A stretch of 47,684 bases of DNA from Candidatus Desantisbacteria bacterium CG2_30_40_21 (GTDB taxonomy: Bacteria > UBA9089 > CG2-30-40-21), in NCBI GenBank assembly GCA_001873945.1, contig MNYI01000174.1, positions 1-47,684 of the forward strand, in the 5' to 3' direction. Within the stretch, counting starts at the first letter, position 1. Each line of letters begins with the position of its first letter. Of this stretch, positions 358-12,139 are shown one piece after another. Under the pieces are notes generated by a model. The model was not told the origin of the DNA and did not search any database. It worked only from the letters and a program-made list of their open reading frames with translations. Position numbers and translations under genes: made by a program.

Positions 358-498
358 ATGAATAACATCACTTTTGTTTTTGATGGACTCTCTGCTGTTT
401 TTCTGAGTTTTATAATTATCGCAGTCACTGGTTGGGCTATTTTGTATTATCAAGAGCGTCGTCAACAGGCTCATAATCTAAGTAAATTCACTCTGTAA
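358..498 (+). CDS. small hypothetical membrane protein (46 aa)
   Basis: ATG at 358 preceded by AAGGAGGA (345-352). One hydrophobic helix LSAVFLSFIIIAVTGWAILYY. No recognisable family. The ORF-track start at 304 is TTG without an RBS. Confidence 0.4.
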   Translation: MNNITFVFDGLSAVFLSFIIIAVTGWAILYYQERRQQAHNLSKFTL

Positions 499-2064
499 TG
501 TGTCAGTATCTGCATAACTCATCACCCTTTCCAGCAAACCCAGCCGCAAATGTGTCTGGTTTTCAAACCTGCCAACCAATGCTTCGCCCTCTTTATCCAG
601 ATCATAGCAAGTGCTGTTTTCTATATCAATTAATACCCCGGGAACCCCTGCATTCCGGAAGATCCCCTGCCTTTTGGCAAAGAATGCCTTGCAACAACAG
701 CCGATGTATGAGCTAACCCCATCTGTTCGGCACTCTTGAAGTGTTGTCCTCAGGTGTTCATAATTCTGTATGGTAATGGGTCTAAGCCCTCGTTGCTCTG
801 CCAGTTCATACGCCTTGCCAATACTGCATCCACCACACCTACTGCACCCCTCTTGATACCGATATTCACACCCCACCAGCTTGGCACAATATGGCAAGAG
901 TAAAACCGATGGTTGTTTCAAGATATCACGGATAGAGCCATTCACGGTGAACAGGTAGTTTGCTTCTTCTAATGGAATGCCCAGAGACGGATATTCCATT
1001 CGTTGCAAAGCAGAAGAAACACAAGCAACAAAATCAGCACCTTGTAGCCCTGACATCTGAGGCTGATTATGCTCGAAAAACCATTCAATTTTTTGTATAA
1101 CCTCAATAATTGGAATATCCTTCAGGATTGCCTCAAGGTCAAATATCGTACGAGACGGCGAAACAAAGAAATCACCGGTAATCAATGCTTGTTTGAGTGC
1201 CATGCGTTTAGTATCTACCACTAAGGATGCCCGAATCAATCCTCCCTTAGCCTTATTTGTTGCCCTCAGGGTCTGCCTGATATCATGGGGTTCTCGCGTT
1301 TCTTCAATCCATTCCCTGGATGCAAATTCAGGACTTCTGTAGTCAAGCACTTGCTGGAGTTTTTCAGGAAGCTCCATCCTCTCAAACCTTATCCCCAGTA
1401 CCTCCTCAAACCCAGCCTGCAATGCCTGTTTGATTATATCCAATGATGGTACAAATCCCAGTTCTTCCTGCAAGCAAGTAACCCGCTGTCTTGCTGAGGC
1501 AAGTTCCTTATCTGCCAATTTCTCTGTCGGGATTCGTAAGGCACGAATCATGGATTCCACATCAAAGTTAACCAATAATGTCCCCTGAAACAATACTGCA
1601 TTATCCTCAAAAATCCCACCTGTGCCGGATATTTTACGGCCGTTGACCTCAATATCGTTACGGGGTCGAAAATTTGCATTAACACCCAATGTCTTCAATC
1701 CTCTGATAACTGCCTCACAGACCAGTTCTGTCACCTTATCCAATCGATAACCAATGTCAGCCTTTGACGCAATCAATTCCCAGCCAAGTTGCGAAGAATC
1801 AAAATATATGGCACCACCGCCGGTAATTCGTCGATTAATATCAATACCCTGTTTGCGGCAAAACTCAAGCCGCACCTCTTGCTCCACAGTCTGATGGTAC
1901 CCTATAAGTACAGCCGACGGTGAGAATTGCATAAATCTGACGGTATTAGGAATGTCACCTTTAGCCCGTGCCTCAAGCAGGATTGAGTCAAGGGTAATAT
2001 TTTCTGCTGCTGTAAGTATGCCTGTATCAAGCAGTTGCCATCTCACCATGGATGTAATCACCAC
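478..2064 (-). CDS. lipoate-protein ligase (LplA catalytic + C-terminal accessory domain) fused to a C-terminal Cys-rich DUF116-like domain
   Basis: N-terminal BPL/LplA/LipB-type sequence with the NGRKISGTGG lysine motif. LplA C-terminal-domain-like segment GGLIRASLVV..ITGDFF. Last ~145 aa carry LLLPYC..C..CSRCGGCSIG..IGCCC, matching my recollection of Pfam DUF116. GTG at 2064; alternative ATG at 2049 behind GGTGGTGA. Confidence 0.8.
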   Translation of the reverse strand: MVITSMVRWQLLDTGILTAAENITLDSILLEARAKGDIPNTVRFMQFSPSAVLIGYHQTVEQEVRLEFCRKQGIDINRRITGGGAIYFDSSQLGWELIASKADIGYRLDKVTELVCEAVIRGLKTLGVNANFRPRNDIEVNGRKISGTGGIFEDNAVLFQGTLLVNFDVESMIRALRIPTEKLADKELASARQRVTCLQEELGFVPSLDIIKQALQAGFEEVLGIRFERMELPEKLQQVLDYRSPEFASREWIEETREPHDIRQTLRATNKAKGGLIRASLVVDTKRMALKQALITGDFFVSPSRTIFDLEAILKDIPIIEVIQKIEWFFEHNQPQMSGLQGADFVACVSSALQRMEYPSLGIPLEEANYLFTVNGSIRDILKQPSVLLLPYCAKLVGCEYRYQEGCSRCGGCSIGKAYELAEQRGLRPITIQNYEHLRTTLQECRTDGVSSYIGCCCKAFFAKRQGIFRNAGVPGVLIDIENSTCYDLDKEGEALVGRFENQTHLRLGLLERVMSYADTDTLQSEFT

Positions 2065-3019
2065 CTATTAATGCACAACACACCTCACTAAACCGCACCT
2101 CAAGCCCCATCTCCTTAGCCATCCCCACAATTCCCTCTGCTGGATAAGCAATACCGTTTAATCCTGCCTTAAGTGCCAGTGTGTCTGTCTTGAATTTATG
2201 TTCGCCCATGGGACGCATACATCCTAACAAAACTGGTGTGAAAGGGAATACCTGTCGGGCGTGCTTAAACACCTCACCCATTTCCGCAGGATCTGGTGGA
2301 ATAACATCAGCCATCGCTGTTCCGATTTGTGGCAATAGACCCACCAGAACAACAGCCGTTACCGGGTACTTAGCAATAATCTCAAGTGCCTGATATTCTC
2401 CCAGAATCTTCCTGTAATGCAACCCAATAACCACATGGGGAATGGTGTGTATTCCATATTCGCACAAGAGTTTGAGTGAATTTTCAAAATCGTTTGTGGT
2501 CACATCCTTCAGATGATAAACCTGCCTGAGGGTTTCATTAGAACCAACAATATCCATCATTGCCCCATCAATTGCCGCAGAATCCCTTATCTCCTGCACG
2601 GTTTCTTCATCCAAAATGCCTAAGTGAGCAACAATTTTGAAGCCAAATTCTTGCTTTATTCGGGCAATGGTGTTCAAGAATGGCTTGATGGGTACTACAC
2701 CCCTTTTATCTGACCCACCACTGATGAGCATCCCTTTTGCCCCATGCCTATTAATTTCTTGAGCGTAATTAAACAATGCTTGTGGCGAGATGGTAGGCTT
2801 CATGGCAGCAAGTATCTTGCGACCGCAGTGGTCACAATTCAATTCACAGCCTGCCCCGGTAATAGACACAGGCATAAAATAACAATGCCCGCAACTTTGA
2901 CAAAATTCCTCAGTTTCATAATGCTTTATCGTTGGGGCAAAGAAAGAGATGCTGTTGCCAAAATTCTGTCGAGCTATGTTCCAACATTTTTCCTCAGTTA
3001 ATTCCTGATCCATTACCAT
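2027..3019 (-). CDS. radical SAM protein, LipS1/LipS2-like (archaeal-type lipoyl synthase component)
   Basis: CELNCDHC (CX3CX2C) radical SAM motif preceded by a second cluster-like motif CQSCGHC. Lies between the lipoate ligase and the DsrC/LbpA genes. Radical SAM assignment is firm; LipS assignment rests on context. Confidence 0.65.
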   Translation of the reverse strand: MVMDQELTEEKCWNIARQNFGNSISFFAPTIKHYETEEFCQSCGHCYFMPVSITGAGCELNCDHCGRKILAAMKPTISPQALFNYAQEINRHGAKGMLISGGSDKRGVVPIKPFLNTIARIKQEFGFKIVAHLGILDEETVQEIRDSAAIDGAMMDIVGSNETLRQVYHLKDVTTNDFENSLKLLCEYGIHTIPHVVIGLHYRKILGEYQALEIIAKYPVTAVVLVGLLPQIGTAMADVIPPDPAEMGEVFKHARQVFPFTPVLLGCMRPMGEHKFKTDTLALKAGLNGIAYPAEGIVGMAKEMGLEVRFSEVCCALIGGDYIHGEMATA

Positions 3020-3397
3020 AGGTGTTACTCCATAAATTCAAGCCAATAAGCACGCCTCCACAACCACCGCAGGGAAAAGATGCAGAAATCCCGGCGATCT
3101 TAAATGCCTGATTATACTGCCCCTGAGGAAAAAGCTCGTGAAAATACCACGCATTACCCTTTTCTTCACCCAACATTTTTTCATCTCCCTGACGATTATC
3201 TTCATCTGGGGTGGATAGCCGTATTCTTGATAATAATTGCGAATGATGCCAATAATATTCCAATGCTCAAGCGTAAGTGTAATTCCGCAACCATTTGCCA
3301 GATATTCAGCTATGCCCTTATTCCACTGGTTCGGGTCTTGCAGAAAGCCGTCTGCATCTGTTTCGTAAGGTTGGCTATTAAGTTCAAAAACCGGCAT
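2994..3397 (-). pseudogene. DsrC/TusE-family protein, reading frame broken in an A6 run (T6 at 3176-3181 on + strand); atypical C-terminus
   Basis: ORF 3038-3397 gives the N-terminal two thirds (DADGFLQDPNQWNKGIAEYLA..LTLEHWNIIGIIRNYYQEYGYPP). ORF 2994-3263 gives the collinear C-terminal part (LGEEKGNAWYFHELFPQGQYNQAFKIAGISASFPCGGCGG). The frames join at ..REMKK|MLGEEKG.. if one A is added or by a -1 shift. Confidence 0.8.
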
Positions 3398-3410: not shown

Positions 3411-3989
3411 TCAATTGATACTTTTCCTGTAAATCAGCTCCACACCATCGATATGATAATCATTGTGCCACACATCATAACATGAATGGCAGGTAAATAT
3501 TACCTGTTTTGCCTTTAGCCGTTGTATCTCTCCTGAATTATGTTGCTTGCAAACTTCAAATTCCTCATCCAGTCCAAGCCCTTTCAAGACCCTTCCGCAA
3601 CACCATTCCCTGTCTCCAAGCACAGCAAAATCAACCCCATCACGAGACAATTCCTTAACTATGTCCAATGCCGTTTGTTGCGAGGGAATAAGAAACGATT
3701 GTTTGCAGCCCACAAAATAAACTACGGCAGCCCTTTCTTTTTGAGCATATTGGGTAAACCCATTACCCTCCAGCCTTAGCCACAATCCCCTTTCTTCATT
3801 GGGATAACCAAACAGGTTATGGTGTTGATTAGTGATTAGCTTAGCAGTTTCTACCACCTGCGGGTCATGACCATGAGCAGCGACAGCATCTGCAAGACCT
3901 GTCCATTTTCCGTGAACGCCGGAACATACTCCCTTATCACAAAACATACGCTCTTGTAGTCTTCGTTGCAGGATAATTTCTTGCAACAT
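3411..3989 (-). CDS. single-CCG-domain protein, paralogue of the C-terminal half of the 686-aa HdrD-like protein
   Basis: AAVVYFVGC..EWCCG..FTCHSCY forms one complete CCG motif. Collinear with residues around AAVVYFVGCMTSF..EWCCGFP..FNCASCY of ORF 4614-6674. Start overlaps the lbpA stop (TAATG). Confidence 0.75.
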   Translation of the reverse strand: MLQEIILQRRLQERMFCDKGVCSGVHGKWTGLADAVAAHGHDPQVVETAKLITNQHHNLFGYPNEERGLWLRLEGNGFTQYAQKERAAVVYFVGCKQSFLIPSQQTALDIVKELSRDGVDFAVLGDREWCCGRVLKGLGLDEEFEVCKQHNSGEIQRLKAKQVIFTCHSCYDVWHNDYHIDGVELIYRKSIN

Positions 3990-4453
3990 TACTCCTTCTC
4001 CTTCTCCGCAAACAACCCTTCTGCCTCATATTTTTTATAATCTGCCTCAAGCCATGCTGACACCTCTTCCTCACCATGCTTGAGATCAATTATATCTTTC
4101 TGCAAATTACTTGCCTCAATCAGTATCAACCAGCCTGTTCCATAGGAATCAGTATTGATCAGACTTGGGCTGCTCAAGACATCCTGATTGACCTCAAGGA
4201 TAGTGCCATGGACAGGGGATTTCACTGGACCGATATACTTTCCTGCTTCGATCGTACCCAATGCACGACCCTTAGTTACTGTTCCACCAGCGGGCTTAAT
4301 CTTAACATAAGCCACTGTGCCGGCTGCCTTCTGACCAAACTGGTCAATACCACACCGAACCCTGTTTCCTTCCTCAATCCTCAGCCAGACATGATTATCT
4401 GAATTAAAATAATACAAATCACCCGGCATCTCAACATCCTTGTACTTTGCCAT
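3989..4453 (-). CDS. lbpA: GcvH-like lipoate-binding protein (LbpA-type)
   Basis: Glycine-cleavage H-protein fold signature: HVWLRIEEG..CGIDQFGQ..LGTIEAGKYIGPVKSPVHGTILEVN..DSYGTGWL, with the lysine in the lipoylation position. Strong RBS AAGGAGG. No gcvT/gcvP nearby. Confidence 0.85.
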   Translation of the reverse strand: MAKYKDVEMPGDLYYFNSDNHVWLRIEEGNRVRCGIDQFGQKAAGTVAYVKIKPAGGTVTKGRALGTIEAGKYIGPVKSPVHGTILEVNQDVLSSPSLINTDSYGTGWLILIEASNLQKDIIDLKHGEEEVSAWLEADYKKYEAEGLFAEKEKE

Positions 4454-4471
4454 TACTACCTCCTTGTAAAA

Positions 4472-4620
4472 CTAAAAGTGAAAAGTGAAAAACGAAAAGT
4501 GAAAAACGAAAAGTGAAAAGTGAAAAACGAAGTTAAAATCACTTTCCCCTTTTCACTTATTAAAAAATAATTTATGTTTTTACCTTCACTTTTCGTTTTT
4601 CACTTTTCACTTTTCACTTC
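4472..4620. repeat. long imperfect inverted repeat built from tandem heptamers (AAAGTGA / AAAACGA), intercistronic between the HdrD-like gene and lbpA
   Basis: About 8 tandem 7-mers at 4474-4529. The reverse-complement arm CTTCACTTTTCGTTTTTCACTTTTCACTTTTCACTTC lies at 4584-4620. The TGA stop of ORF 4614-6674 lies inside the first unit. Confidence 0.8.
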
Positions 4621-6674
4621 TTCTCCATCCCAGCCGCAAGCACCAACTCAGCCATATCCATAACCTTCACTTTTGAGCCTTTGGCTTTAATAGCATTCTG
4701 AATCATCCGTTTACACTGACCACAAGCTGTGGTAACAATATCTACATGGGACTCATCAAACTCTTCCACCAGACTTCCGGCAATCTTATTGACCAAATCT
4801 GCATTGACCATCTCCAGATCTCCACCACCACCACAGCAGGTGCTAAGCCTTCTATTCAAGGGCAATTCCACATATTCTACCCCCGGGATAGATTTAATGG
4901 CTTTTCTTGGTGGCTCGAATACACCACAGCCCCGTCCCAGATCGCATGGGTCATGATAGGCAACCCTTCCTTTTATTCCACCCAAATTAACCCTTTTGTC
5001 AGCAATCAGCCTATGGATATATTCAACATTGTGAAGGAATTCTACCCCTGGCAAATACTCTTGATACTCATGCTTAAAGGTATGGTAGCAGGAGGCACAA
5101 TTGAAGACAACCTGTTTTGCCTGCATCATCTTTATCACTTCCACATTCTTGTCCCTCAGCCACTGCCATTCCTGAGAAAGCCCCGCTACAATAAGTGGAA
5201 ATCCGCAGCACCATTCATCCTCACCCAAAATGGCAAAATCCTCCCCTGCCTGATACAACAGGTTCAGGTTTGCCTCTGCCACCCCGGAGATAGCCGGGGA
5301 AAATGAGGTCATACACCCAACAAAATAGACAACGGCTGCCTTTTTCTTGTCTGAATAAACCTCAGGGGGCACATCTGAAAACTCAGCCCACATCAATCGG
5401 TCAGCATTGGGATAATTAAGAACATTATGCACCTTCTTTGCTGCACCAAGGGCAATGTTTACTGCATTTGGGGCAATTTTTTCCCTAACTGCATACTCCC
5501 GCATGGAAACCCGCAGGCTTCTGGTATTAATATTTATCGGGCAGACCTCTTTGCACCTGCCGCATAGGGTACAGGTATAAACTTGAGTCGCAAACCAGTC
5601 TTGCGATTCCTTAGTGTGGGGTTCTCTATCTATGAGCGAGCTAAAAAAGCCATACCCCTGCCTCAACCTTTCACTAATTAACGAGATTACCCCGCCTGAA
5701 ACTGCATGTTCTTCTTTAGTATGTTTATAAGCCACACAATGTTCTGCACATATCCCACATTTGATACAGGCATCTATCTCTATTAACTGCCGTTTGGAGA
5801 AGGGGATCTCATCTGCCTGCTTGCTGAAGATATGTTGTTCTGGCGATAATGAATTAACCACCATGGCAATGGGTGCAGTTACAATATGCCACAGCTTGCG
5901 ATTAAACGGAATGGTACCAACCAGAGTACCCAGGAATATACCGGAAAGACACCAGCTTATGATATAAAAATCAGGCCAGTGAAGACCCAACGGGGCAATT
6001 ATTTTAGATAAGACAAAAGCCACAAACCAATAACTGGCAATACTATCCGGCACATTAAAACTCAAAATACTTGTTGCCTCAGCCAGAAACCGTAGAGCAA
6101 ACCAGCCACCAAGGATAATCACGGCAAAGATGTCTGCCTCTTTCATCTTAAACACATACGCCCGTTTGATAAAGCGACGATAAATAAGTATGCCCTCACC
6201 AACTACTAAGATAAGGAAACCAAAGCCATCATTCAGCAAGGCATACAACGCCTGCTGATGGGTAAATGTAGCCTCTGAGACTGTTCGGAAAAAGTAAAAA
6301 TCACAAAATGGGGAATAAAGGAAACGGGTAAGATGAGAAATGCTTTGTAGCTCTGGCATGGAGGAAGCCTTGACATGATTAACCACGATGATGCCGATAT
6401 AACTGACAATGATAGAAACCATGGCCACACCCCGCAGGATGTTTTCCTTAAATAGTCGGCGATGGATAAAGGAATCAAGGATAGCACCAAAGAAATGAAA
6501 GAGCCTTGGGCTAAATATGGCCACAATAATGCTCGTACCAGTGCTGATTATACCCCTACCCATGCCCTTTGTCCAGATATAGAGGTTGTTCAGCAGCCCC
6601 AGGGCAAAAACAAATAGCCCAATCATAAAGGCAGCCGCACAAAATGAATCAAATAATGGATATTGACCTAACAT
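4614..6674 (-). CDS. membrane-anchored HdrD/DsrK-like iron-sulfur oxidoreductase (polytopic membrane domain + 2x[4Fe-4S] ferredoxin motifs + two CCG domains)
   Basis: First ~270 aa contain at least 6 hydrophobic segments. Then CIKCGICAEHC and CTLCGRCKEVCP, followed by VGC..WCCG..NCASC and HDPC..TCCGGGG..TACGQC. RBS GAGGAGA. Confidence 0.8.
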   Translation of the reverse strand: MLGQYPLFDSFCAAAFMIGLFVFALGLLNNLYIWTKGMGRGIISTGTSIIVAIFSPRLFHFFGAILDSFIHRRLFKENILRGVAMVSIIVSYIGIIVVNHVKASSMPELQSISHLTRFLYSPFCDFYFFRTVSEATFTHQQALYALLNDGFGFLILVVGEGILIYRRFIKRAYVFKMKEADIFAVIILGGWFALRFLAEATSILSFNVPDSIASYWFVAFVLSKIIAPLGLHWPDFYIISWCLSGIFLGTLVGTIPFNRKLWHIVTAPIAMVVNSLSPEQHIFSKQADEIPFSKRQLIEIDACIKCGICAEHCVAYKHTKEEHAVSGGVISLISERLRQGYGFFSSLIDREPHTKESQDWFATQVYTCTLCGRCKEVCPININTRSLRVSMREYAVREKIAPNAVNIALGAAKKVHNVLNYPNADRLMWAEFSDVPPEVYSDKKKAAVVYFVGCMTSFSPAISGVAEANLNLLYQAGEDFAILGEDEWCCGFPLIVAGLSQEWQWLRDKNVEVIKMMQAKQVVFNCASCYHTFKHEYQEYLPGVEFLHNVEYIHRLIADKRVNLGGIKGRVAYHDPCDLGRGCGVFEPPRKAIKSIPGVEYVELPLNRRLSTCCGGGGDLEMVNADLVNKIAGSLVEEFDESHVDIVTTACGQCKRMIQNAIKAKGSKVKVMDMAELVLAAGMEKK

Positions 6675-6695: not shown

Positions 6696-6800
6696 ATGTG
6701 TAAAATACTAATGATTTTTATGATTTAAGTGATTTGGAATGATTAAAAAATAATCATCATAATTACTAAAATCATTCCCAATCATTAGTAACTTACACAT
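6696..6800. repeat. 105-bp near-perfect palindromic element in the tusA / HdrD-like intercistronic gap
   Basis: ATGTGTAAAATACTAATGATT (6696-) pairs with AATCATTAGTAACTTACACAT (-6800). Inner arms are TGATTTGGAATGATT / AATCATTCCCAATCA. Confidence 0.75.
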
Positions 6801-6865: not shown

Positions 6866-7114
6866 TTACGGTTTCATCACGAACACTTCCCAATATCCCT
6901 TATCCTCCAGCCTGACCGACTCCATTTGCAGCCCATTCTTTTCACAAAAGGCTGGAATCTCCTTGGTCACAGACGGTTCAGAATCGCACAATATCTTAAT
7001 CACATTACCAGAGATTAACCCCTTGGTAGCCTTTTTGGTCATAACCAATGGATATGGACATACCCTGCCCAAAACATCAATCTCCTTGACTGGTTCAATC
7101 GTCTTTATATCCAT
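6866..7114 (-). CDS. tusA: TusA/SirA-family sulfur carrier
   Basis: 82 aa with the VLGRVCPYPLV active-site Cys-Pro-x-Pro context. Confidence 0.85.
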   Translation of the reverse strand: MDIKTIEPVKEIDVLGRVCPYPLVMTKKATKGLISGNVIKILCDSEPSVTKEIPAFCEKNGLQMESVRLEDKGYWEVFVMKP

Positions 7115-7151: not shown

Positions 7152-7553
7152 TCAAAACCACATCATCTGATCGCATCTTTCCATCTCTTTTTGCACCTCA
7201 TTAAACCCTACCACATTCAAATCAATATCAGCCCCCATATCCCTTGCATTAATCAACCGTTCAGGCTTTATGTCTAAACGGTATAAGTCCTCCTTGCAAA
7301 CCAGCATCCTCATATCAGAAGCCAATTGATTCTTGATATGCTGCTCCGTACTGATAATGCCATAAAATTCCTGTGACCTTTGGTTTTTAATACAATTCAA
7401 TACCCCATCACCCACAAAGGCAACAACCGGCTCAACCTCTTCATCAATATGCATATCAGCCACAAAACAAGCCATGGCATGGGTGATGGCAAGCTTTGGG
7501 TTTTCACTTTTGTATGGAGGTCTTGAGATTACAAACAAAATACTCTTTGCCAT
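7152..7553 (-). CDS. DsrE/DsrF-family protein (DsrF/TusC-like)
   Basis: MAKSILFVISRPPY.. DsrE-fold N-terminus and ..LVCKEDLYRL.. segment. Start moved to the ATG at 7553 behind AAGGAGAA; the longer ORF-track start reads through a hairpin. Confidence 0.7.
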   Translation of the reverse strand: MAKSILFVISRPPYKSENPKLAITHAMACFVADMHIDEEVEPVVAFVGDGVLNCIKNQRSQEFYGIISTEQHIKNQLASDMRMLVCKEDLYRLDIKPERLINARDMGADIDLNVVGFNEVQKEMERCDQMMWF

Positions 7554-7580
7554 ATTATTTTCTCCTTCCTTATCGTTCGC

Positions 7581-7601
7581 GGACAGGGACAAGCCCTGTC
7601 C
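7581..7601 (-). other. intercistronic stem-loop (8-bp GC-rich stem)
   Basis: GGACAGGG acaag CCCTGTCC, immediately after the stop of ORF 7602-7961 and before the RBS of the next gene. Confidence 0.6.
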
Positions 7602-7961
7602 CTACTCTCCCCCTATATGCAATACTCTATCACTTTTAGCTGCCCGTGCCACATACCAATCCATGCTATGGACAGCAATCCCTTCTATTACATCATCTTT
7701 ATGAATTCCCCGAGCCGCAGCACATGCCTCACATGCAACAATTGCTACACCATTTTCTTGTAAAGCCTTCAGCCTCTCTGCCAGATAGGAGTAATCCTTA
7801 AACGACTTTTGTCCCTTTCTGGCTAAAGTAACAGCATTGCCAGAAAACCACAGGTTTACGCTATGCCCTTTATTTACCGCTGTTTCTGCCAGCTTAACGG
7901 CAAAATCAGAATTCATCGAACCAATAAGGGAAGAAAAAAGACCAATGCTTATCGTTGCCAT
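7602..7961 (-). CDS. DsrE/TusD-like sulfurtransferase subunit (Cys-bearing)
   Basis: 119 aa with IVACEACAAARGI, corresponding to the DsrE/TusD active-site cysteine region. Confidence 0.8.
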   Translation of the reverse strand: MATISIGLFSSLIGSMNSDFAVKLAETAVNKGHSVNLWFSGNAVTLARKGQKSFKDYSYLAERLKALQENGVAIVACEACAAARGIHKDDVIEGIAVHSMDWYVARAAKSDRVLHIGGE

Positions 7962-7976
7962 TTTTTTTAGTTAGAA

Positions 7977-8127
7977 GTCAAGAAAAAATAAGTTGTACAC
8001 CAAGAGTCACTGAGTCGTTTGGCTGGCAAAGCGTGAGAAGCGAGCATACTACTGTATGTAAGCGACGAACAACGGAGCCAGCCAAGATGAATCGGTGGCA
8101 CGACTGTATAAGTTATTTTTTCTTGAC
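7977..8127. mobile_element. MITE-like element, family B, copy 1 (intercistronic)
   Basis: TIRs GTCAAGAAAAAATAAGTTGTACA / TGTATAAGTTATTTTTTCTTGAC. Second copy at 36474-36600 shares both ends and the core CTGTATGTAAGCGACGAACAAC..GCCAGCCAAGATG.ATCGGTGGCACGACT. Confidence 0.8.
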
Positions 8128-8137
8128 GACTTACCTC

Positions 8138-8437
8138 CTATAACCAGATTAACTTCTCATAATCATTCATCATCAAATCCACGACATCCTCATAAGTAAC
8201 GACATTTACCCTACTATCTATTTCAGAAGTAGTAAATCCCCTTGTTTGAATATCGGAGGCTAAGGCATAATAATTTACGCCTTTTTTTTGCAACACCCCT
8301 GAATCCCTGCCATTTTCATGGATTACTGCATGATACACACCATTTTCAACGAAAAATATACCAAGCCCTTCACCGTTCAATCTCTCCAGCATACTATCAT
8401 TTTTCTGACAATCACTAACAAATACCCCCAGCCTCAT
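8138..8437 (-). CDS. DsrH/TusB-like protein
   Basis: 99 aa with GIFFVENGVYHAV.. and ..YYALASDIQTRGF.., typical of DsrH/TusB. Confidence 0.7.
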   Translation of the reverse strand: MRLGVFVSDCQKNDSMLERLNGEGLGIFFVENGVYHAVIHENGRDSGVLQKKGVNYYALASDIQTRGFTTSEIDSRVNVVTYEDVVDLMMNDYEKLIWL

Positions 8438-8438
8438 C

Positions 8439-8687
8439 CTACTCCTCCTTTTTGATCAAGAGTCGAAAGGTAGCGTCAGAGTTTTCAATAACCTCAACAG
8501 GATACTTCTTCTTCTGGCAAAAATTAGGAATAGATTCAGTAGCCGCTGGCTTGTAATCAGTTATAACCTCAAGAACCTGACCTGTTTCTATCCCCTTCAA
8601 GGCATCCCTTACCTCCATCACCGTATAAGGACAAATCTTGCCCGTGATGTCTACCACACTATCTATCTTACAACCTGCTAATCCCAT
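8439..8687 (-). CDS. tusA: TusA/SirA-family sulfur carrier
   Basis: 82 aa with DITGKICPYTVMEVRDALK. Confidence 0.85.
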   Translation of the reverse strand: MGLAGCKIDSVVDITGKICPYTVMEVRDALKGIETGQVLEVITDYKPAATESIPNFCQKKKYPVEVIENSDATFRLLIKKEE

Positions 8688-8906: not shown

Positions 8907-9164
8907 TCAAGCGAGATTTACCACCTTATTTCCCACAATCAAATCAACTAACTGTGGATAGCCAATGCTCTCAGCCTTTCCAGCCAATCTATCCTTTAAT
9001 CCTCTTGCATGGACATCATCCTCCATGGCATAAACCTTACCATGCATGGTAGAGGGATTAAGATAGACGCCATCCTTAATAAGTACAACCTTTGCATCAC
9101 TATCCATTGCTGATACTGAGGCTGCAATCTCACCATTTGGCTTATCAACTAAATAAAGAGCCAT
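8907..9164 (-). CDS. DsrH/TusB-like protein
   Basis: 85 aa with VVLIKDGVYL.. and ..VYAMEDDVHARGL.. Confidence 0.7.
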   Translation of the reverse strand: MALYLVDKPNGEIAASVSAMDSDAKVVLIKDGVYLNPSTMHGKVYAMEDDVHARGLKDRLAGKAESIGYPQLVDLIVGNKVVNLA

Positions 9165-9177
9165 ATCTGTTCACCTC

Positions 9178-9528
9178 CTACCAATCGAGAATAAATTCAG
9201 CATCACTGTATAATTTATCAGAGTCTGCCCTTGGAATAATACTCATATCCATAGCTATTTCATCCTGAGATACCCCTCTTGCATCTAAGTCTTCCTTGAC
9301 CACGAAGTATTTTACCCCTGCCTTCTTGAGTGTACCCTCATAACCAAGGTTTTCTGCCCTGTCCGCACCCTTCAAGGCATAGTAAACCCCATCACCCTGT
9401 AAGAGCAAGGTTACCTCATGTTCATCAATCCCAGCGGTTGCTCCAACAGCCGCACGCCATCCTTCGGTATAGAAGACATTACCATATGGCGTTCTATTAA
9501 ATTGATAAAGCAATTTTCTTGTTGCCAT
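9178..9528 (-). CDS. DsrF/TusC-like protein
   Basis: 116 aa with LLLQGDGVYYAL.. and ..YFVVKEDLDARGV.., and no active-site Cys, as in TusC/DsrF. Confidence 0.75.
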   Translation of the reverse strand: MATRKLLYQFNRTPYGNVFYTEGWRAAVGATAGIDEHEVTLLLQGDGVYYALKGADRAENLGYEGTLKKAGVKYFVVKEDLDARGVSQDEIAMDMSIIPRADSDKLYSDAEFILDW

Positions 9529-9556
9529 TAATCCTTCACCTCCTTTTCCTTCTCTA

Positions 9557-9916
9557 TTACAGCGTTACCAGCGTATCGCACTCGCCCATAATGTCCGCAA
9601 AGTCCGGCAATCCACCAACCTTGACACCCTCAATAAATTCCTTGCCACCTTCCAGACCTCGTCCATTGACGCAAATACCACAACAGATGATTTTAGCTCC
9701 CTTTTCCACCACCTTCTTTATTCCTGAGACAGGTAGATTTTCCTCTGTTGTTCCAGGAAACTTCTGGTGTTTGATGGGGTTATAGACGCCATCAAGGTAA
9801 AAGAACGCCTGTACCTCATGCCCTTTGTCCAATGCAGCATCAGCTATTTTGGTAAATACCTTGTAGTTTTCCGTCTGCCATGGACCTTCAGTCAGCAACA
9901 TCCCTATTTTTGCCAT
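9557..9916 (-). CDS. DsrE/TusD-like sulfurtransferase subunit (Cys-bearing)
   Basis: 119 aa with KIICCGICVNGRGL active-site region. Confidence 0.8.
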   Translation of the reverse strand: MAKIGMLLTEGPWQTENYKVFTKIADAALDKGHEVQAFFYLDGVYNPIKHQKFPGTTEENLPVSGIKKVVEKGAKIICCGICVNGRGLEGGKEFIEGVKVGGLPDFADIMGECDTLVTL

Positions 9917-9937: not shown

Positions 9938-10285
9938 TTAAAATCCTATAACCACATCCGCATTCCTGATAATCTGATTGATTTCAGCTCGTGGTCTTGT
10001 AATTATAGCAGAATTATCAACCTTGATCCCCCGATCAATCAATGCCTCTTCCTCAGCCATTAACTCCGCCTCCATCATCAACAAGGTTTCTACATGCTTA
10101 TCAAGCTCCTGATTTTTGGCTGCCTGACAATCCAGAGAGGCTGCGGTCCAGACCCCATCATTTATAAAAAGCACCTGAACCTTATTTTCGTCCTCAATAG
10201 TTAATCCCACAGCACACCTTAATGCTTCAGCATTGCCAATGGTATTAAAGGGCAATGCGTAAATAACAACAGCTATCTTTTTCAT
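9938..10285 (-). CDS. DsrF/TusC-like protein
   Basis: MKKIAVVIYALPF.. DsrE-fold protein without the active-site Cys context. ATG at 10285 lies 1 nt after the upstream stop, with GGAGGG inside the upstream gene end. Confidence 0.65.
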   Translation of the reverse strand: MKKIAVVIYALPFNTIGNAEALRCAVGLTIEDENKVQVLFINDGVWTAASLDCQAAKNQELDKHVETLLMMEAELMAEEEALIDRGIKVDNSAIITRPRAEINQIIRNADVVIGF

Positions 10286-10286
10286 C

Positions 10287-10616
10287 CTACCCTCCAAAGC
10301 TCAAAAATCTATCGCTTTCATTAACCATAACTGCTAACTCATACTGACCAGCATATTTTACCCCAGTCAGGCAATCATCCTCTTCAACCCCGCGTTCCTC
10401 AGCAGTATGTCCGCAAATGGCAAGAAATGCACCCGCATCCCTTAACCCTGCAAACCGGGAAGAAATCTTATTCTTTGCTACCACATTGTAAACCCCATCA
10501 TCCATCATAAACAGGCTTACCTCATGCCCAGCTCCCAGAGCAGCCGTAGCCAGATTAATGACTGTCCCGGCATTCTGGTTCTCTGGACTGGTGGTTAATA
10601 ATATTCCCATTTTCAT
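10287..10616 (-). CDS. DsrE-like sulfurtransferase (Cys-bearing)
   Basis: 109 aa with MKMGILLTTSP.. and ..FLAICGHTAEERGV.. Confidence 0.75.
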   Translation of the reverse strand: MKMGILLTTSPENQNAGTVINLATAALGAGHEVSLFMMDDGVYNVVAKNKISSRFAGLRDAGAFLAICGHTAEERGVEEDDCLTGVKYAGQYELAVMVNESDRFLSFGG

Positions 10617-11053
10617 GATGCAACACCCTCCTTCATAGTTACAATTCCCTCACTTATCCATCTGATAATATCCTCAAGGGTAACATTTTCTGATATATTT
10701 TCTAATTTTTCGGTTATTCTTTCCCAAAGGCTACAGATTATTTCATCTATCATCTGATTGGTCTTTATCTCCTCAGACGGACGAATCTCAATAGGTGCTT
10801 CCACTGCCTCTGCAATCTGTTTAATGGTCACCATTGATGGCAAACCTTTAAGGATATAGCCACCCAATACCCCGCCCCTGACACTCTCCAGCAGCCCGGC
10901 ATGTTTTAACTTATTGAGAATTTGCGATACAAATGGAAAGGAGATATTCTGCCGATGGGCAATATCATTTCCTGTAACAGTGTTACCTTGCCCCTGTACC
11001 GCAATATCAGTCATAATTACAATAGCATAGTGTACCTTAATTGGGAGTTTCAT
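10613..11053 (-). CDS. Rrf2-family transcriptional regulator
   Basis: N-terminal winged-helix typical of Rrf2/IscR/BadM (VHYAIVIMTDIA..ISFPFVSQILNKLKHAGLLESVRG). 4-nt overlap with the next gene. Confidence 0.85.
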   Translation of the reverse strand: MKLPIKVHYAIVIMTDIAVQGQGNTVTGNDIAHRQNISFPFVSQILNKLKHAGLLESVRGGVLGGYILKGLPSMVTIKQIAEAVEAPIEIRPSEEIKTNQMIDEIICSLWERITEKLENISENVTLEDIIRWISEGIVTMKEGVAS

Positions 11054-11185: not shown

Positions 11186-11214
11186 TTGACAGCATTGCTC
11201 AAGTATGTTATCAT
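11186..11214 (+). promoter_or_regulatory. sigma70-type promoter for the divergent LysR gene
   Basis: TTGACA (11186-11191), 17-nt spacer, TATCAT (11209-11214). Confidence 0.5.
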
Positions 11215-11240
11215 TTGAGATTAAGTGGTATAGGAGGAAA

Positions 11241-12139
11241 ATGATGGATGATTTTACTTTGCGAGTATTTCATAAGATATCTCAATTAAAAAGCTTCTCT
11301 AAGGTGGCTGATGAATTATATATTACACAATCTGCGGTCAGTCGGCAGATAAAGAATTTAGAGGATAAGCTGGTGGTCAAGTTGTGCCTGAGAGAAAAAG
11401 AGGGGATTTCACTCACTGAAGAGGGCAAGATACTGCTTGGCTATGTGGAAAAGATACTGGTTCTTTATGAAAAGGCGAGAAAGGATATAGACCATTTCAG
11501 GCATACCAGTCTGAATAAAATAATTGTTGGCGCCAGTACTGCTTTGGGTGAATATGTCTTACCCAGGATAATCAGTTCCTTTAACAAAAGACACCCTGAG
11601 GCAGATATTTATTTGCGGGTAGCAAATACTGGCGAGATATTGAAGCAATTAACAGCTAATGCCTTTAATTTGGCATTGGTTGAAGGGATGTTTGATACCC
11701 CTGGATTTATTGTGGAAAAGGTATTTGAGGATGAATTGGTGCTTATTGTTTCTGCCAACCACTCATGGACAGAAAAAAACAGATAAATTTTCATGAATTA
11801 CGCTCCGAACCAATCATCATCAGGGAAGAAGGTTCAGGCACAAGAAAGATAATGGTTGAGGCATTAGCTAAGATTGGGGTAGAAATTTCTGATTTAAGGA
11901 TCAGGATGGAACTTGATTCAACAGAAGCGGTTAAGAGTGCGGTTGCCGAAGGGCTTGGTATCTCCTTTGTCTCAAGGTCTACCCTGATTAAAATGTCAGA
12001 AGATATACGAATAGTCCCTATAGCTAACATTGACCTTCATTTTAACTTCAATCTTATCTACAGCCGGGAAAGGGGGCTTACCTCTTTAACCCTTGAGTTG
12101 ATAGAGTGCTTAAAGGAAAGGTTCTCTGGTCTTAATTAA
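11241..12139 (+). pseudogene. LysR-family transcriptional regulator, frame broken in an A7 run (11773-11779)
   Basis: HTH part FSKVADELYITQSAVSRQIKNLE in ORF 11205-11786 (true start ATG 11241 after AGGAGGA). The substrate-binding half ..EPIIIREEGSGTRK.. is in ORF 11765-12139. One extra A gives continuous ..NHSWTEKKQINFHELRSEP.. Confidence 0.85.

What the first reader, a model, noticed from the sequence alone, without database searches (positions are those of the whole stretch)
4614..6674. Single polypeptide combining a polytopic membrane domain with an HdrD/DsrK-type catalytic module, placed directly upstream of lbpA
Seen: residues 1 to ~270 are dominated by hydrophobic helices containing several His. 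These are followed by CIKCGICAEHC, CTLCGRCKEVCP and two full CCG motifs (VGC..WCCG..CASC; HDPC..TCCGGGG..CGQC). Established: in HdrED, DsrMK and HmeCD the membrane b-type cytochrome and the CCG subunit are usually separate proteins, and the CCG noncubane clusters perform disulfide/trisulfide chemistry. Inference: this fused form, followed after a repeat-filled ~160-bp gap by a lipoyl-carrier gene, could couple the dithiol/disulfide (or persulfide) state of lipoyl-LbpA or of the DsrC-like protein to the quinone pool.
Basis: partly seen in the sequence, partly recalled or inferred. Interest (0 to 1): 0.62.

Follow-up and report, generated by a model that had tools for sequence, protein, structure and literature searches.

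The report
Membrane HdrD-type enzyme partnered with LbpA
One membrane protein joins a cytochrome-b-like anchor to a complete heterodisulfide-reductase catalytic module, and in many uncultured anaerobes it sits beside a lipoic-acid carrier protein and sulfur-transfer genes, which points to an undescribed route for electrons between protein-bound lipoate or sulfur and membrane quinones.

Summary
It has a roughly 285-residue helical membrane domain, two CX2CX2CX3C motifs and two complete CCG motifs. It is followed, after a 160-bp repeat hairpin, by a GcvH-like lipoyl carrier (LbpA). The fusion itself is not new: HdrF, EMO and mycobacterial EtfD have the same build, and the model's best PDB match is EtfD (9OJN). 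Three things are new. First, the clade keeps all ten Hdr-type cluster cysteines, whereas EtfD/EMO have a degenerate distal cluster and DsrK has a single cluster. Second, no etfAB lay within 8-10 kb in the 90 related loci searched. Third, the order DsrE/F/H-like trio, TusA, this gene, LbpA, with the LipS1/sLpl(AB) lipoate-assembly genes in the same cluster, recurs in Desulfobacterales, Actinomycetota, anammox Planctomycetota and Chloroflexota MAGs, with no sHdrA-like gene in those loci other than QmoA. The membrane domain keeps only one of the three canonical EMO/HdrE heme histidines, so its heme content is open. Best reading: a quinone-linked disulfide/dithiol oxidoreductase acting on the lipoyl arm of LbpA, in an sHdrA-less sulfur module. 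No biochemistry exists. The link to the DsrC-like gene is not supported.

The parts
4614..6674 (-). TM-HdrD: a 686-aa fusion of a NarI/EMO-like membrane domain, an HdrC-like di-[4Fe-4S] domain and an HdrB-like double-CCG domain
5820..6674 (-). Membrane domain, residues 1-285. Model helices are 6-34, 79-105, 139-169, 179-205 and 233-257, plus short connecting helices. H263 is invariant (5886-5888) and H100 nearly invariant (6375-6377).
5538..5768 (-). Two CX2CX2CX3C motifs (C303-C313 and C368-C378) for two cubane [4Fe-4S] clusters
5088..5315 (-). CCG motif 1: C454, C489, C490, C526, C529 (CX34CCX35CXXC), all invariant
4713..4946 (-). CCG motif 2: C577, C613, C614, C651, C654 (CX35CCX36CXXC), all invariant
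4465..4619 (.). Intergenic heptad-repeat inverted repeat (GTGAAAA/CGAAAAA) between TM-HdrD and lbpA. It folds as an RNA hairpin and is a multi-copy repeat in the source metagenomes.
3989..4453 (-). LbpA: a GcvH-like lipoyl carrier of 154 aa, with lipoyl-lysine K72 in IEAGKY (4238-4240) and an AAGGAGG ribosome-binding site
3411..3989 (-). Small protein of 192 aa with a single CCG motif. A 50% identical orthologue holds the same position in L103.
3038..3397 (-). DsrC/TusE-like gene, out of frame after the A6 run at 3176-3181. No tblastn match in any related locus held.
2027..3019 (-). LipS1 lipoyl synthase (NCBIfam NF053742, 243 bits, cutoff 230)
478..2064 (-). sLpl(AB)-type lipoate-protein ligase fused to a Cys-rich DUF116 domain
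6866..7114 (-). TusA-like sulfur carrier immediately upstream of TM-HdrD
7152..8687 (-). Two DsrE-like genes (7152-7592, 7602-7961), a DsrH-like gene (8138-8437) and a second TusA (8439-8687)
8907..9916 (-). The conserved DsrE (9557-9916) / DsrE-H hybrid (9178-9528) / DsrH (8907-9164) trio. It recurs next to TM-HdrD in the sulfur-type loci.
9938..11053 (-). Two further DsrE/F-like genes and an Rrf2-family regulator at the head of the gene string

Best explanation
The gene encodes a fused, membrane-bound, HdrDE-like disulfide/dithiol:quinone oxidoreductase. Its thiol substrate is the lipoyl arm on K72 of the co-encoded carrier LbpA, as dihydrolipoyl/lipoyl or a sulfane-loaded derivative. Proposed path: TusA and the DsrE/F/H-like trio bring sulfane sulfur into the cytoplasmic relay. 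The pair of noncubane [4Fe-4S] clusters in the double-CCG domain makes or breaks the S-S bond of the lipoyl dithiolane. Electrons then pass through the two cubane clusters to the membrane domain and on to menaquinone. Lipoamide (E0' about -290 mV) lies well below menaquinone (about -74 mV), and this clade has lost the canonical distal heme ligand needed for a transmembrane redox loop. The likely direction is therefore dihydrolipoyl-LbpA to quinone. On this reading the protein is the membrane electron exit of a lipoate-dependent sulfur-oxidation module that has neither sHdrA nor ETF. Shown: the domain anatomy, ligand conservation, fold and synteny. Inferred: the substrate, the quinone partner, the heme content and the direction.
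For: Anatomy: two ferredoxin motifs and two complete CCG motifs, with all 18 Cys invariant in 18 homologues. All 78 untruncated GTDB relatives keep both CCG motifs. Catalytic versus wire type: where M. smegmatis EtfD has T539 and H583, this protein has C490 and an invariant S528 (alignment; PMC13083937). SaEMO lacks one Cys ligand at the distal cluster. DsrK has one cluster only. Fold: Foldseek top hit is EtfD 9OJN over 757 columns (E 7e-18, TMq 0.63), followed by LutA and HdrB. Partner: an LbpA/GcvH-like gene lies in the flanks in 50/80 GTDB loci, mostly on the same strand and often 2-100 bp away, and the lipoyl-Lys motif is kept in 62/64. The block DsrE-DsrE/H-DsrH-TusA-TMHdrD-LbpA is seen in Desulfobacterales, Actinomycetota, Brocadiia and Chloroflexota MAGs and in five metagenome contigs. 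The LbpA-specific lipoylation genes LipS1, sLpl(AB), LipT and LipS2 are co-clustered. No ETF was found in the 90 related loci searched or in the window. No HdrA-like gene is in the window or in the DsrE/TusA-type loci, except QmoA next to AprBA. In L090 the module abuts Sat-AprBA-QmoAB, a route from sulfite to sulfate.
Against: There is no biochemical or expression evidence; no RNA run was found. The membrane domain lacks two of the three His that ligate heme in EMO/HdrE: the TM2 His is M85, or K/V/I in relatives, and the TM5 distal His is S/A244. Heme binding and quinone reduction are therefore not secured. The model's confidence is lowest in the membrane part. About ten relatives at roughly 40% identity in Thermodesulfobacteriota, Syntrophaceae and Hydrothermarchaeota MAGs show no LbpA within the flanks held. 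Synteny cannot tell 'LbpA is the substrate' from 'both serve a third enzyme', for example the HdrB/HdrC-like pair present in L003, L090 and L105. The hosts are anaerobes, in which a reductive role is conceivable. The Kuempel et al. 2024 review of Fe/S proteins in sulfur oxidation is not in the searchable library, so prior mention cannot be excluded.
Confidence: 0.45

Rival explanations
1. Reductive, DsrMK-like role. The enzyme takes electrons from menaquinol and reduces a protein-bound trisulfide, persulfide or disulfide on LbpA, or on the DsrC-like protein, releasing sulfide. It would act in sulfur or sulfite reduction or disproportionation, with LbpA playing the part of DsrC.
For: The architecture parallels DsrMK/HdrED: a membrane cytochrome-like part plus a CCG subunit. 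A DsrEFH-like trio plus TusA is the accessory set that serves DsrC in Dsr systems. A DsrC-like ORF lies in the window. A NIR_SIR sulfite-reductase-like gene lies beside the module in L105, and Sat-AprBA-QmoAB lies beside it in L090. The hosts are anaerobic lineages. More distant LbpA-linked relatives keep all three EMO/HdrE-type His, which fits a pmf-coupled loop.
Against: DsrK-type enzymes have one noncubane cluster and conserved C329/H331/D500. This protein has two full clusters. NCBIfam DsrK scores 82 bits against a cutoff of 400. The DsrC-like gene is frameshifted and has no match in related loci. Reducing the lipoyl disulfide with menaquinol is uphill by about 200 mV, and this clade lacks the canonical distal-heme ligand that a pmf-driven loop would need.
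Confidence: 0.2
2. It is an ordinary EMO/EtfD/HdrF-type electron wire, an ETF:menaquinone oxidoreductase like 'emo' of type II sHdr clusters. Its CCG clusters only conduct electrons, and EtfAB is encoded elsewhere.
For: It has the same three-domain build and the best structural match. emo is a known component of type II sHdr-LbpA clusters (PMC11094781). hdrF3 sits next to etfBA in D. autotrophicum.
Against: No FixA/FixB-like ETF gene lay within 8-10 kb in the 90 related loci searched or in the 47.7-kb window. No shdrC1B1AH core is present. The ligand substitutions that make the EtfD/EMO clusters non-catalytic are absent here. Two of the three His said to be conserved across EMO-like membrane domains are missing.
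Confidence: 0.1
3. It is the membrane anchor and electron acceptor for an organic-acid or glycerol-3-phosphate dehydrogenase (GlpC/LutA/LdhH/HdrF1-2 type). The LbpA adjacency would reflect lipoate metabolism rather than sulfur chemistry.
For: NCBIfam gives partial hits to TfrB (181 bits), LdhH (125) and GlpC (97). In L085 a 41%-identical homologue follows GntR, a GlcD-like FAD oxidase, an HdrD-like gene, GcvH, a second HdrD-like gene and a NarI-like gene. HdrF1/2 sit next to glpAB.
Against: All those hits are far below the curated cutoffs (385, 800, 278). No dehydrogenase gene lies in the window's gene string; it holds only sulfurtransferases, LbpA and lipoylation genes. Even in L085 a GcvH-like carrier is present, which again points to a lipoyl partner.
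Confidence: 0.05

Closest known systems
HdrDE, the membrane-bound heterodisulfide reductase of Methanosarcina, and the HdrB/HdrC catalytic module (PDB 5ODC/5ODR)
   Same: Both have two cubane-cluster motifs and two complete CX31-39CCX35-36CXXC motifs, a pair of noncubane clusters suited to S-S cleavage. Both attach to a NarI-like membrane part that talks to a membrane quinone-like carrier. The model has HdrB-like fold hits.
   Different: Here the membrane and catalytic parts form a single polypeptide. The host is bacterial, with no CoM/CoB. The co-encoded thiol partner is a lipoylated protein. The canonical TM2 and distal TM5 His are missing.
EMO / EtfD (S. aciditrophicus EMO; M. smegmatis EtfD, PDB 9OJN); 'emo' of type II sHdr clusters; HdrF3
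   Same: These are fused TM + HdrC-like + HdrB-like chains of about 680-700 aa. EtfD is the best whole-chain structural match. The proximal-heme motif K-L-W/F-H is kept (H263). A Glu (E199) aligns with the column held by Glu in all but one canonical-clade sequence; from residue spacing alone this may correspond to SaEMO E187.
   Different: There is no etfAB neighbourhood. The distal cluster site has its full Cys set, instead of Thr/His (EtfD) or a missing Cys (SaEMO). Two of the three heme His are lost. A new, nearly invariant H100 and an insertion of about 25 residues follow TM2.
DsrMK(JOP)
   Same: A membrane cytochrome-like part plus a CCG subunit acts on a protein-borne sulfur carrier, and DsrEFH/TusA-type sulfurtransferases accompany it.
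   Different: DsrK has one noncubane cluster, and DsrM is a separate di-heme protein. The NCBIfam DsrK score is far below cutoff. The conserved carrier here is LbpA, not DsrC.
sHdr-LbpA sulfur-oxidation systems, types I and II (Cao 2018; Tanabe 2023, 2024)
   Same: Both have LbpA, the dedicated sLpl(AB)/LipS1/LipT/LipS2 lipoylation set, TusA and DsrE-family sulfurtransferases, and CCG-cluster proteins.
   Different: There is no shdrC1-B1-A-H core and no etfAB. The sulfurtransferases form a DsrE/F/H-like trio rather than DsrE3/DsrE2/Rhd. A membrane HdrD-type enzyme sits directly beside lbpA.

Membership tests
HdrD/HdrB-type two-cluster CCG module | Two CX31-39CCX35-36CXXC motifs (ten Cys) | tested here: met
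   The motifs are CX34CCX35CXXC and CX35CCX36CXXC. They are invariant in 18 homologues and present in 78/78 untruncated GTDB relatives.
HdrD/HdrB-type two-cluster CCG module | HdrC-like domain with two CX2CX2CX3C motifs N-terminal to the CCG domains | tested here: met
   C303/306/309/313 and C368/371/374/378 are invariant. Pfam Fer4_8 scores 47 bits.
HdrD/HdrB-type two-cluster CCG module | HdrB-like fold | tested here: met
   Foldseek hits 5odc_B, 8rwn_B and 7bkb_B, E about 1e-5, TMt 0.61-0.65.
HdrD/HdrB-type two-cluster CCG module | Reduces CoM-S-S-CoB | not testable with these tools
   This needs an enzyme assay. It is unlikely to be the substrate in a Desantisbacteria-like bacterium.
EMO / EtfD (ETF:menaquinone oxidoreductase) | Single chain: NarI-like 5-TM domain + HdrC-like + NCB/CCG domains | tested here: met
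   9OJN is the top Foldseek hit over 757 columns, E 7e-18. Helix layout.
EMO / EtfD (ETF:menaquinone oxidoreductase) | Three conserved heme His (SaEMO H87, H233, H251) | tested here: not met
   Only the H251 equivalent (H263) is kept. The TM2 position is M85 (K/V/I in relatives) and the distal position is S/A244.
EMO / EtfD (ETF:menaquinone oxidoreductase) | Altered, non-catalytic distal cluster site (EtfD T539/H583; SaEMO one Cys missing) | tested here: not met
   C490 and S528 stand at the EtfD T539/H583 positions, and all ten Cys are present.
EMO / EtfD (ETF:menaquinone oxidoreductase) | Genomic or functional link to EtfAB | tested here: not met
   tblastn with E. coli FixA/FixB found no hit in the 90 related loci searched or in the window. 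Only flanks of up to 10 kb were seen.
DsrK of DsrMK(JOP) | A single noncubane cluster with the distal-cluster ligands replaced; curated DsrK HMM | tested here: not met
   Two full motifs are present. NF045796 scores 81.9 bits against a cutoff of 400.
sHdr-LbpA system (type I or II) | Syntenic shdrC1-B1-A-H-(C2-B2 | B3) core | tested here: not met
   No HdrA-like gene is in the 47.7-kb window or in the DsrE/TusA-type related loci, QmoA apart. The rest of the genome is unseen.
sHdr-LbpA system (type I or II) | LbpA plus the dedicated lipoylation genes sLpl(AB), LipS1, LipS2 and LipT | tested here: met
   LbpA carries the K72 motif. LipS1 scores 243 bits, above its cutoff of 230. An LplA-B catalytic domain is present. 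LipT-like and second radical-SAM genes lie just beyond the window in L002.
sHdr-LbpA system (type I or II) | Accompanying TusA and DsrE-family sulfurtransferases | tested here: met
   There are two TusA and eight DsrE/F/H-like ORFs. Subtype assignment (DsrE3A/B/C versus DsrEFH) was not resolved, because all scores fall below the curated cutoffs.
HdrF (Strittmatter et al. 2009) | HdrD-like protein with N-terminal transmembrane helices, next to glpAB or etfAB | tested here: inconclusive
   The architecture is met. The glpAB/etfAB neighbourhood is not met. No HdrF reference sequence was available for direct comparison.
TfrB / LdhH / GlpC / TmcB / HmcF / GlcF | Curated NCBIfam equivalog score | tested here: not met
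   Scores against cutoffs: 181/385, 125/800, 97/278, 75/735, 61/750, 34/333 bits.

The most novel reading that the evidence does not exclude
The conserved block of a DsrE/F/H-like trio, TusA, TM-HdrD and LbpA, with dedicated lipoylation genes and sometimes an HdrB/C-like pair and Sat-AprBA-Qmo, is a third pathway of dissimilatory sulfur metabolism that needs neither sHdrA nor Dsr. In it the lipoyl arm of LbpA carries sulfur or electrons as DsrC does, and a two-cluster HdrD fused to a re-wired cytochrome-like anchor links it directly to the quinone pool. The pathway would be spread among uncultured anaerobes, including anammox bacteria and groundwater candidate phyla.
Probability: 0.25. Interest if true: 0.85.

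Novelty: new variant of a known kind. Interest (0 to 1): 0.64.

Why it matters
What LbpA actually does in lipoate-dependent sulfur oxidation, and how its lipoyl arm is re-oxidised, is still unsettled (PMC6067878, PMC11094781). Here a complete two-cluster Hdr-type active site is fused to a membrane anchor and placed gene-to-gene with lbpA, with no sHdrA or ETF in those loci. That offers a minimal two-protein system in which 'lipoyl-protein to quinone' electron transfer can be assayed directly. If the reading is right, it adds a quinone-coupled alternative to the NAD-linked E3 dihydrolipoamide dehydrogenase. It gives non-methanogen HdrD-like proteins a natural disulfide substrate. It also extends predicted sulfur-cycling capacity to Desantisbacteria, subsurface Actinomycetota, Chloroflexota and anammox Planctomycetota. 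The membrane domain, with two canonical heme ligands lost and a new conserved His gained, is a natural experiment next to the recently solved EMO twin-heme and EtfD mono-heme structures.

Tried and rejected
Plus-strand reading of 4614-6674: rejected because it is full of stops. Single-sequence scan of GTDB genomes: only a spurious Prevotella hit; the alignment-based scan worked. Sequence search of the PDB: only EtfD 9OJN, and only over residues 365-679. The membrane domain was not detected by sequence, so fold search was used. Pfam and NCBIfam gave no hit for residues 1-285. EMO identity: rejected as membership because ETF is absent and the ligands differ. DsrK identity: rejected on cluster number and HMM score. 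DsrC-like protein as partner: set aside because the gene is frameshifted and has no match in related loci. CCG192 as a truncated HdrB-like pseudogene: rejected because a 50% identical 189-aa orthologue holds the same position in L103, and it shows no BLAST similarity to the HdrB-like proteins of L003, L090 and L105. Promoter and terminator scan: counts are not above shuffles, so there is no basis for an internal promoter before TM-HdrD. RNA evidence: no run was listed. A TM-HdrD + LbpA complex model was not attempted, because the tool reports no coordinates or interface metrics. A proper phylogeny against named HdrD, DsrK, TmcB, GlpC, LutA and sHdrB sequences could not be built, because no reference sequences were retrievable; NCBIfam scores and ligand patterns served as proxies. 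Nine literature searches found no paper linking LbpA/GcvH-like proteins to an HdrD-type membrane enzyme. The Kuempel et al. 2024 BBA review is not in the library.
Full report
OBSERVATION. The ORF at 4614-6674 is real but lies on the minus strand (ATG start, 686 aa). There are two ferredoxin-type motifs, C303-X2-C-X2-C-X3-C313 and C368-X2-C-X2-C-X3-C378. There are two complete CCG motifs, C454...C489C490...C526xxC529 and C577...C613C614...C651xxC654. Their spacings, CX34CCX35CXXC and CX35CCX36CXXC, fall inside the Hdr consensus. Pfam reports two CCG domains (98 bits) and Fer4_8, and nothing for residues 1-285. That N-terminal part is hydrophobic. In the AlphaFold2 model (pLDDT 75, pTM 0.77) it forms long helices at 6-34, 79-105, 139-169, 179-205 and 233-257, plus short connecting helices. 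On the transcribed strand the next gene, after exactly 160 bp, is a GcvH-like protein. It matches PF01597 but falls below the NCBIfam cutoffs for true GcvH.

THE LOCUS. The gene order in the direction of transcription is as follows:
- an Rrf2 regulator;
- two DsrE/F-like genes;
- a DsrE / DsrE-H hybrid / DsrH trio;
- TusA, DsrH and two more DsrE-like genes;
- a second TusA;
- TM-HdrD, then LbpA;
- a 192-aa protein with one CCG motif;
- a DsrC-like ORF;
- LipS1 (243 bits, above its curated cutoff of 230);
- an sLpl(AB)-type ligase fused to DUF116.
The same contig in a JGI aquifer metagenome continues with a LipT-like flavoprotein and a second radical-SAM (LipS2-like) gene. The window's AspRS is 97% identical to that of a Candidatus Desantisbacteria MAG. 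The stretch occurs in many 2017 aquifer and groundwater metagenomes. The window holds no HdrA-like gene and no ETF gene.

IS THE FUSION NEW? No. Transmembrane-plus-HdrD fusions were named HdrF in Desulfobacterium autotrophicum, where they sit next to glpAB or etfAB (PMC2702500). The ETF:(methyl)menaquinone oxidoreductase EMO of Syntrophus aciditrophicus and EtfD of Mycobacterium smegmatis are fusions of the same kind, and both now have cryo-EM structures (bioRxiv 10.64898/2026.08.18.745454; PMC13083937). An 'emo' gene belongs to type II sHdr clusters (PMC11094781). Foldseek puts EtfD (9OJN) first for this model, over 757 aligned columns (E 7e-18, TMq 0.63). LutA and several HdrB chains follow. 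Within the present family both fused (about 670-700 aa) and split forms occur.

WHAT SETS THIS CLADE APART: THE CLUSTER LIGANDS. All ten CCG cysteines and all eight ferredoxin cysteines are invariant in 18 full-length homologues spanning 38-82% identity. All 78 untruncated relatives recovered from GTDB genomes keep both full CCG motifs. In EtfD the second Cys of the first CCG motif is Thr539, and His583 completes the other cluster. The authors say this makes the clusters non-catalytic. In the HMMER alignment to 9OJN these positions are C490 and S528 here, and S528 is invariant. SaEMO lacks one Cys ligand at its distal cluster. DsrK has only one noncubane cluster. By its ligands, therefore, the module is the two-cluster Hdr type that cleaves a disulfide. 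It is not the EtfD/EMO wire type or the DsrK type. Curated NCBIfam models are all hit far below cutoff: TfrB 181/385, LdhH 125/800, GlpC 97/278, DsrK 82/400, TmcB 75/735, HmcF 61/750.

WHAT SETS THIS CLADE APART: THE NEIGHBOURHOOD. An alignment-based scan of one genome per GTDB species returned 80 loci. I ran tblastn with the window's proteins against these loci and against the metagenome contigs. An LbpA/GcvH-like gene lies in the flanks in 50 of the 80 loci, mostly on the same strand and often 2-100 bp from the HdrD-type gene. The lipoyl-lysine motif E-(S/A)-G-K-(W/Y) is kept in 62 of 64 of these partners; it is K72 in the window's LbpA. A subset carries the same block as the window: DsrE, DsrE/H, DsrH, TusA, [TM-HdrD], LbpA, usually with LipS1 and sLpl(AB). 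This subset includes:
- Desulfobacterales and Desulfobacteraceae MAGs, and Ca. Desulfacyla;
- Actinomycetota MAGs;
- anammox lineages (Brocadiia, Brocadiales);
- Chloroflexota;
- all five close metagenomic relatives whose contigs I inspected.
In one Actinomycetota-like MAG the gene string runs on into HdrB-like, HdrC-like, adenylate kinase, Sat, AprB, AprA, QmoA and QmoB. E. coli FixA/FixB found no ETF gene in the 90 related loci searched. HdrA-like genes occur only in Anaerolineae-type loci, or as QmoA. The known sHdr-LbpA arrangements all contain the shdrC1-B1-A-H core. This one does not, at least within the DNA seen. About ten relatives at roughly 40% identity, from Thermodesulfobacteriota, Syntrophaceae and Hydrothermarchaeota MAGs, have no LbpA in the flanks held. 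Another relative at that level sits in a string of GntR, GlcD-like, HdrD-like, GcvH, HdrD-like and NarI-like genes. The pairing of this HdrD lineage with a lipoyl carrier is therefore broader than sulfur metabolism.

WHAT SETS THIS CLADE APART: THE MEMBRANE DOMAIN. SaEMO ligates its proximal heme with H87 (TM2) and H251 (TM5), and its distal twin-heme with H233. These three His are reported as conserved across EMO-like domains. I aligned the membrane domains of 32 family members. The more distant LbpA-linked relatives (anammox, Anaerolineae, Desulfacyla) keep all three positions: RWxxH in TM2, and two His 18 residues apart in TM5. The window's clade and its roughly 40% relatives keep only the last, the invariant K-L-W-H263. 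The TM2 position is M85 in the close clade and K, V or I in the others. The distal position is S or A. In exchange there is a nearly invariant H100, 15 residues after the lost TM2 ligand, near the outer end of TM2. By position this is about where SaEMO has A101 and the HdrE model has a Ser facing the second distal heme. An insertion of about 25 residues (PFxDFYFFR) follows. E199 is invariant in the A1 alignment and aligns with a Glu in 12 of the 13 canonical-clade sequences; from residue spacing alone this column may correspond to SaEMO E187, which binds the cation at the twin-heme propionates. H100 and H263 sit at opposite ends of the membrane in the model, so they cannot be a bis-His pair. 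Heme number and ligation cannot be read from sequence. The possibilities are one proximal heme with His/Met or His/Lys ligation, a re-wired distal site, or none. This membrane-domain type is rare. Among 1.84 billion cluster representatives only 54 match at E <= 1e-3 and 10 at E <= 1e-30.

MECHANISM (inference). The lipoyl dithiolane is a natural intramolecular 'heterodisulfide' for a pair of noncubane clusters. The carrier protein and its private lipoylation machinery are encoded gene-to-gene with the enzyme. The fold is that of an enzyme that delivers electrons to menaquinone. The most economical reading is a lipoyl-LbpA:quinone oxidoreductase. Lipoamide (about -290 mV; PMC6067878) lies about 200 mV below menaquinone (about -74 mV, textbook value), and this clade has lost the canonical distal-heme ligand. 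The downhill direction, dihydrolipoyl to quinone, is therefore more likely here. The TusA and DsrE/F/H-like proteins, and the Sat-Apr-Qmo neighbourhood in one lineage, place the pair in dissimilatory sulfur metabolism. There it would serve as the membrane exit for electrons, in place of sHdrA/NAD or ETF/EMO. I put this at about 0.45.

RIVALS. The main rival (0.2) is the reverse, DsrMK-like reading, in which menaquinol-driven reduction acts on a sulfur-loaded carrier. The anaerobic hosts, a sulfite-reductase-like neighbour in L105 and the three-His relatives favour it. The two-cluster site and the thermodynamics count against it. An ordinary EMO role (0.1) and a role as a dehydrogenase anchor (0.05) are less likely, for the reasons given above.

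THE DsrC-LIKE GENE. It is not part of the conserved block: the tblastn search found no match to it in any related locus held at that point. It is also out of frame after an A6 run at 3176-3181. The other frame continues with the family's ...LFPxG...QAxKIAG... signature. One of four aquifer assemblies carries an extra base in that run, which restores the frame. This is a strain polymorphism or a homopolymer error.

THE 160-bp GAP. It consists of GTGAAAA/CGAAAAA heptads arranged as an inverted repeat; one arm pair of 30 nt is 100% complementary. As RNA it folds into a hairpin of -60.6 kcal/mol (z = -7.3 against shuffles), ending just before the AAGGAGG site of lbpA. Word depth in the source metagenomes rises from about 12 to as much as 470-860 across it, and independent assemblies break there. 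It is thus a multi-copy repeat element inserted between two genes that lie 3-60 bp apart in relatives. It is not a conserved part of the system.

NOVELTY AND LIMITS. Nine full-text searches found no description of an LbpA/GcvH-like protein paired with a membrane HdrD-type enzyme. The 2024 BBA review by Kuempel et al. is not in the library, so a prior mention cannot be ruled out. The rest of each genome is unseen, so sHdrA or EtfAB could be encoded elsewhere. There is no expression or biochemical evidence. I rate this a new variant of a known kind: a known enzyme architecture with a distinct ligand set, a re-wired membrane domain and an undescribed, conserved partnership.

Noticed in passing
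window 2994-3397 (-), A-run at 3176-3181: The DsrC/TusE-like gene is out of frame after an A6 homopolymer. The other frame carries the family's C-terminal signature but ends in an atypical ...SFPCGGCGG... tail that overlaps the LipS1 start. One of four aquifer assemblies (run X10) has one extra base in the run, which restores the frame.
   Followed up: partly
window 4454-4619: A heptad-repeat (GTGAAAA/CGAAAAA) palindromic element forms a -60.6 kcal/mol RNA hairpin between TM-HdrD and lbpA. Its word depth is up to about 40-70 times that of the flanks, and public assemblies break there, so it belongs to a multi-copy repeat family. A weaker copy lies at 24430-24455.
   Followed up: partly
window 478-2064 (-); also L003 17336-18889, L090 2171-3736, L105 17344-18885: The sLpl(AB)-type lipoate-protein ligase is fused to a Cys-rich DUF116 domain, and the fusion is conserved in related loci. 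DUF116 is not mentioned in the main text of the paper that defined the sLpl(AB)-LipS1/S2 pathway.
   Followed up: no
window 3411-3989 (-); L103 3359-3928: A small (189-192 aa) protein with one complete CCG motif and an N-terminal Cys pair follows lbpA in the window and in a 77%-identity relative's locus. Other relatives instead carry an HdrB-like (two CCG motifs) plus HdrC-like pair, which shows no BLAST similarity to it.
   Followed up: partly
window 11205-12139 (+): A LysR-family regulator, divergent from the Rrf2 gene string, is split into two overlapping ORFs (HTH plus N-terminal substrate domain; C-terminal substrate domain). This indicates a frameshift.
   Followed up: no
window 6696-6800: The 191-bp spacer upstream of TM-HdrD holds nested inverted repeats built on AATCATT. 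This may be an operator site. No convincing promoter was found there.
   Followed up: no
L085 1352-10022; L053, L056, L058, L064 and similar loci: In Thermodesulfobacteriota, Desulfobacteraceae and Syntrophaceae MAGs a GcvH-like gene is sandwiched between two soluble HdrD-like genes. LplA is often present too, and in L085 a GntR regulator, a GlcD-like FAD oxidase and a NarI-like membrane protein. This is a non-sulfur context for the same HdrD/lipoyl-carrier pairing.
   Followed up: partly
L090 5798-15870 (GCA_021789835.1); L018, L019: In subsurface Actinomycetota-like MAGs the LbpA/TM-HdrD module runs directly into HdrB-like, HdrC-like, adenylate kinase, Sat, AprB, AprA, QmoA and QmoB genes.
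   Followed up: partly
L105 4239-6970: A 506-aa NIR_SIR-type sulfite-reductase-like gene and a TusA-Usp fusion lie divergently upstream of the module in a 64%-identity relative.
   Followed up: no
L003 13719-14545; L104 13876-14716; L105 13721-14547: Three small conserved ORFs (about 107, 101 and 57 aa) follow a second LplA gene in several relatives. By eye, from their sequences alone, they look like a further DsrE/F/H-like trio. Pfam gives no hit.
   Followed up: no
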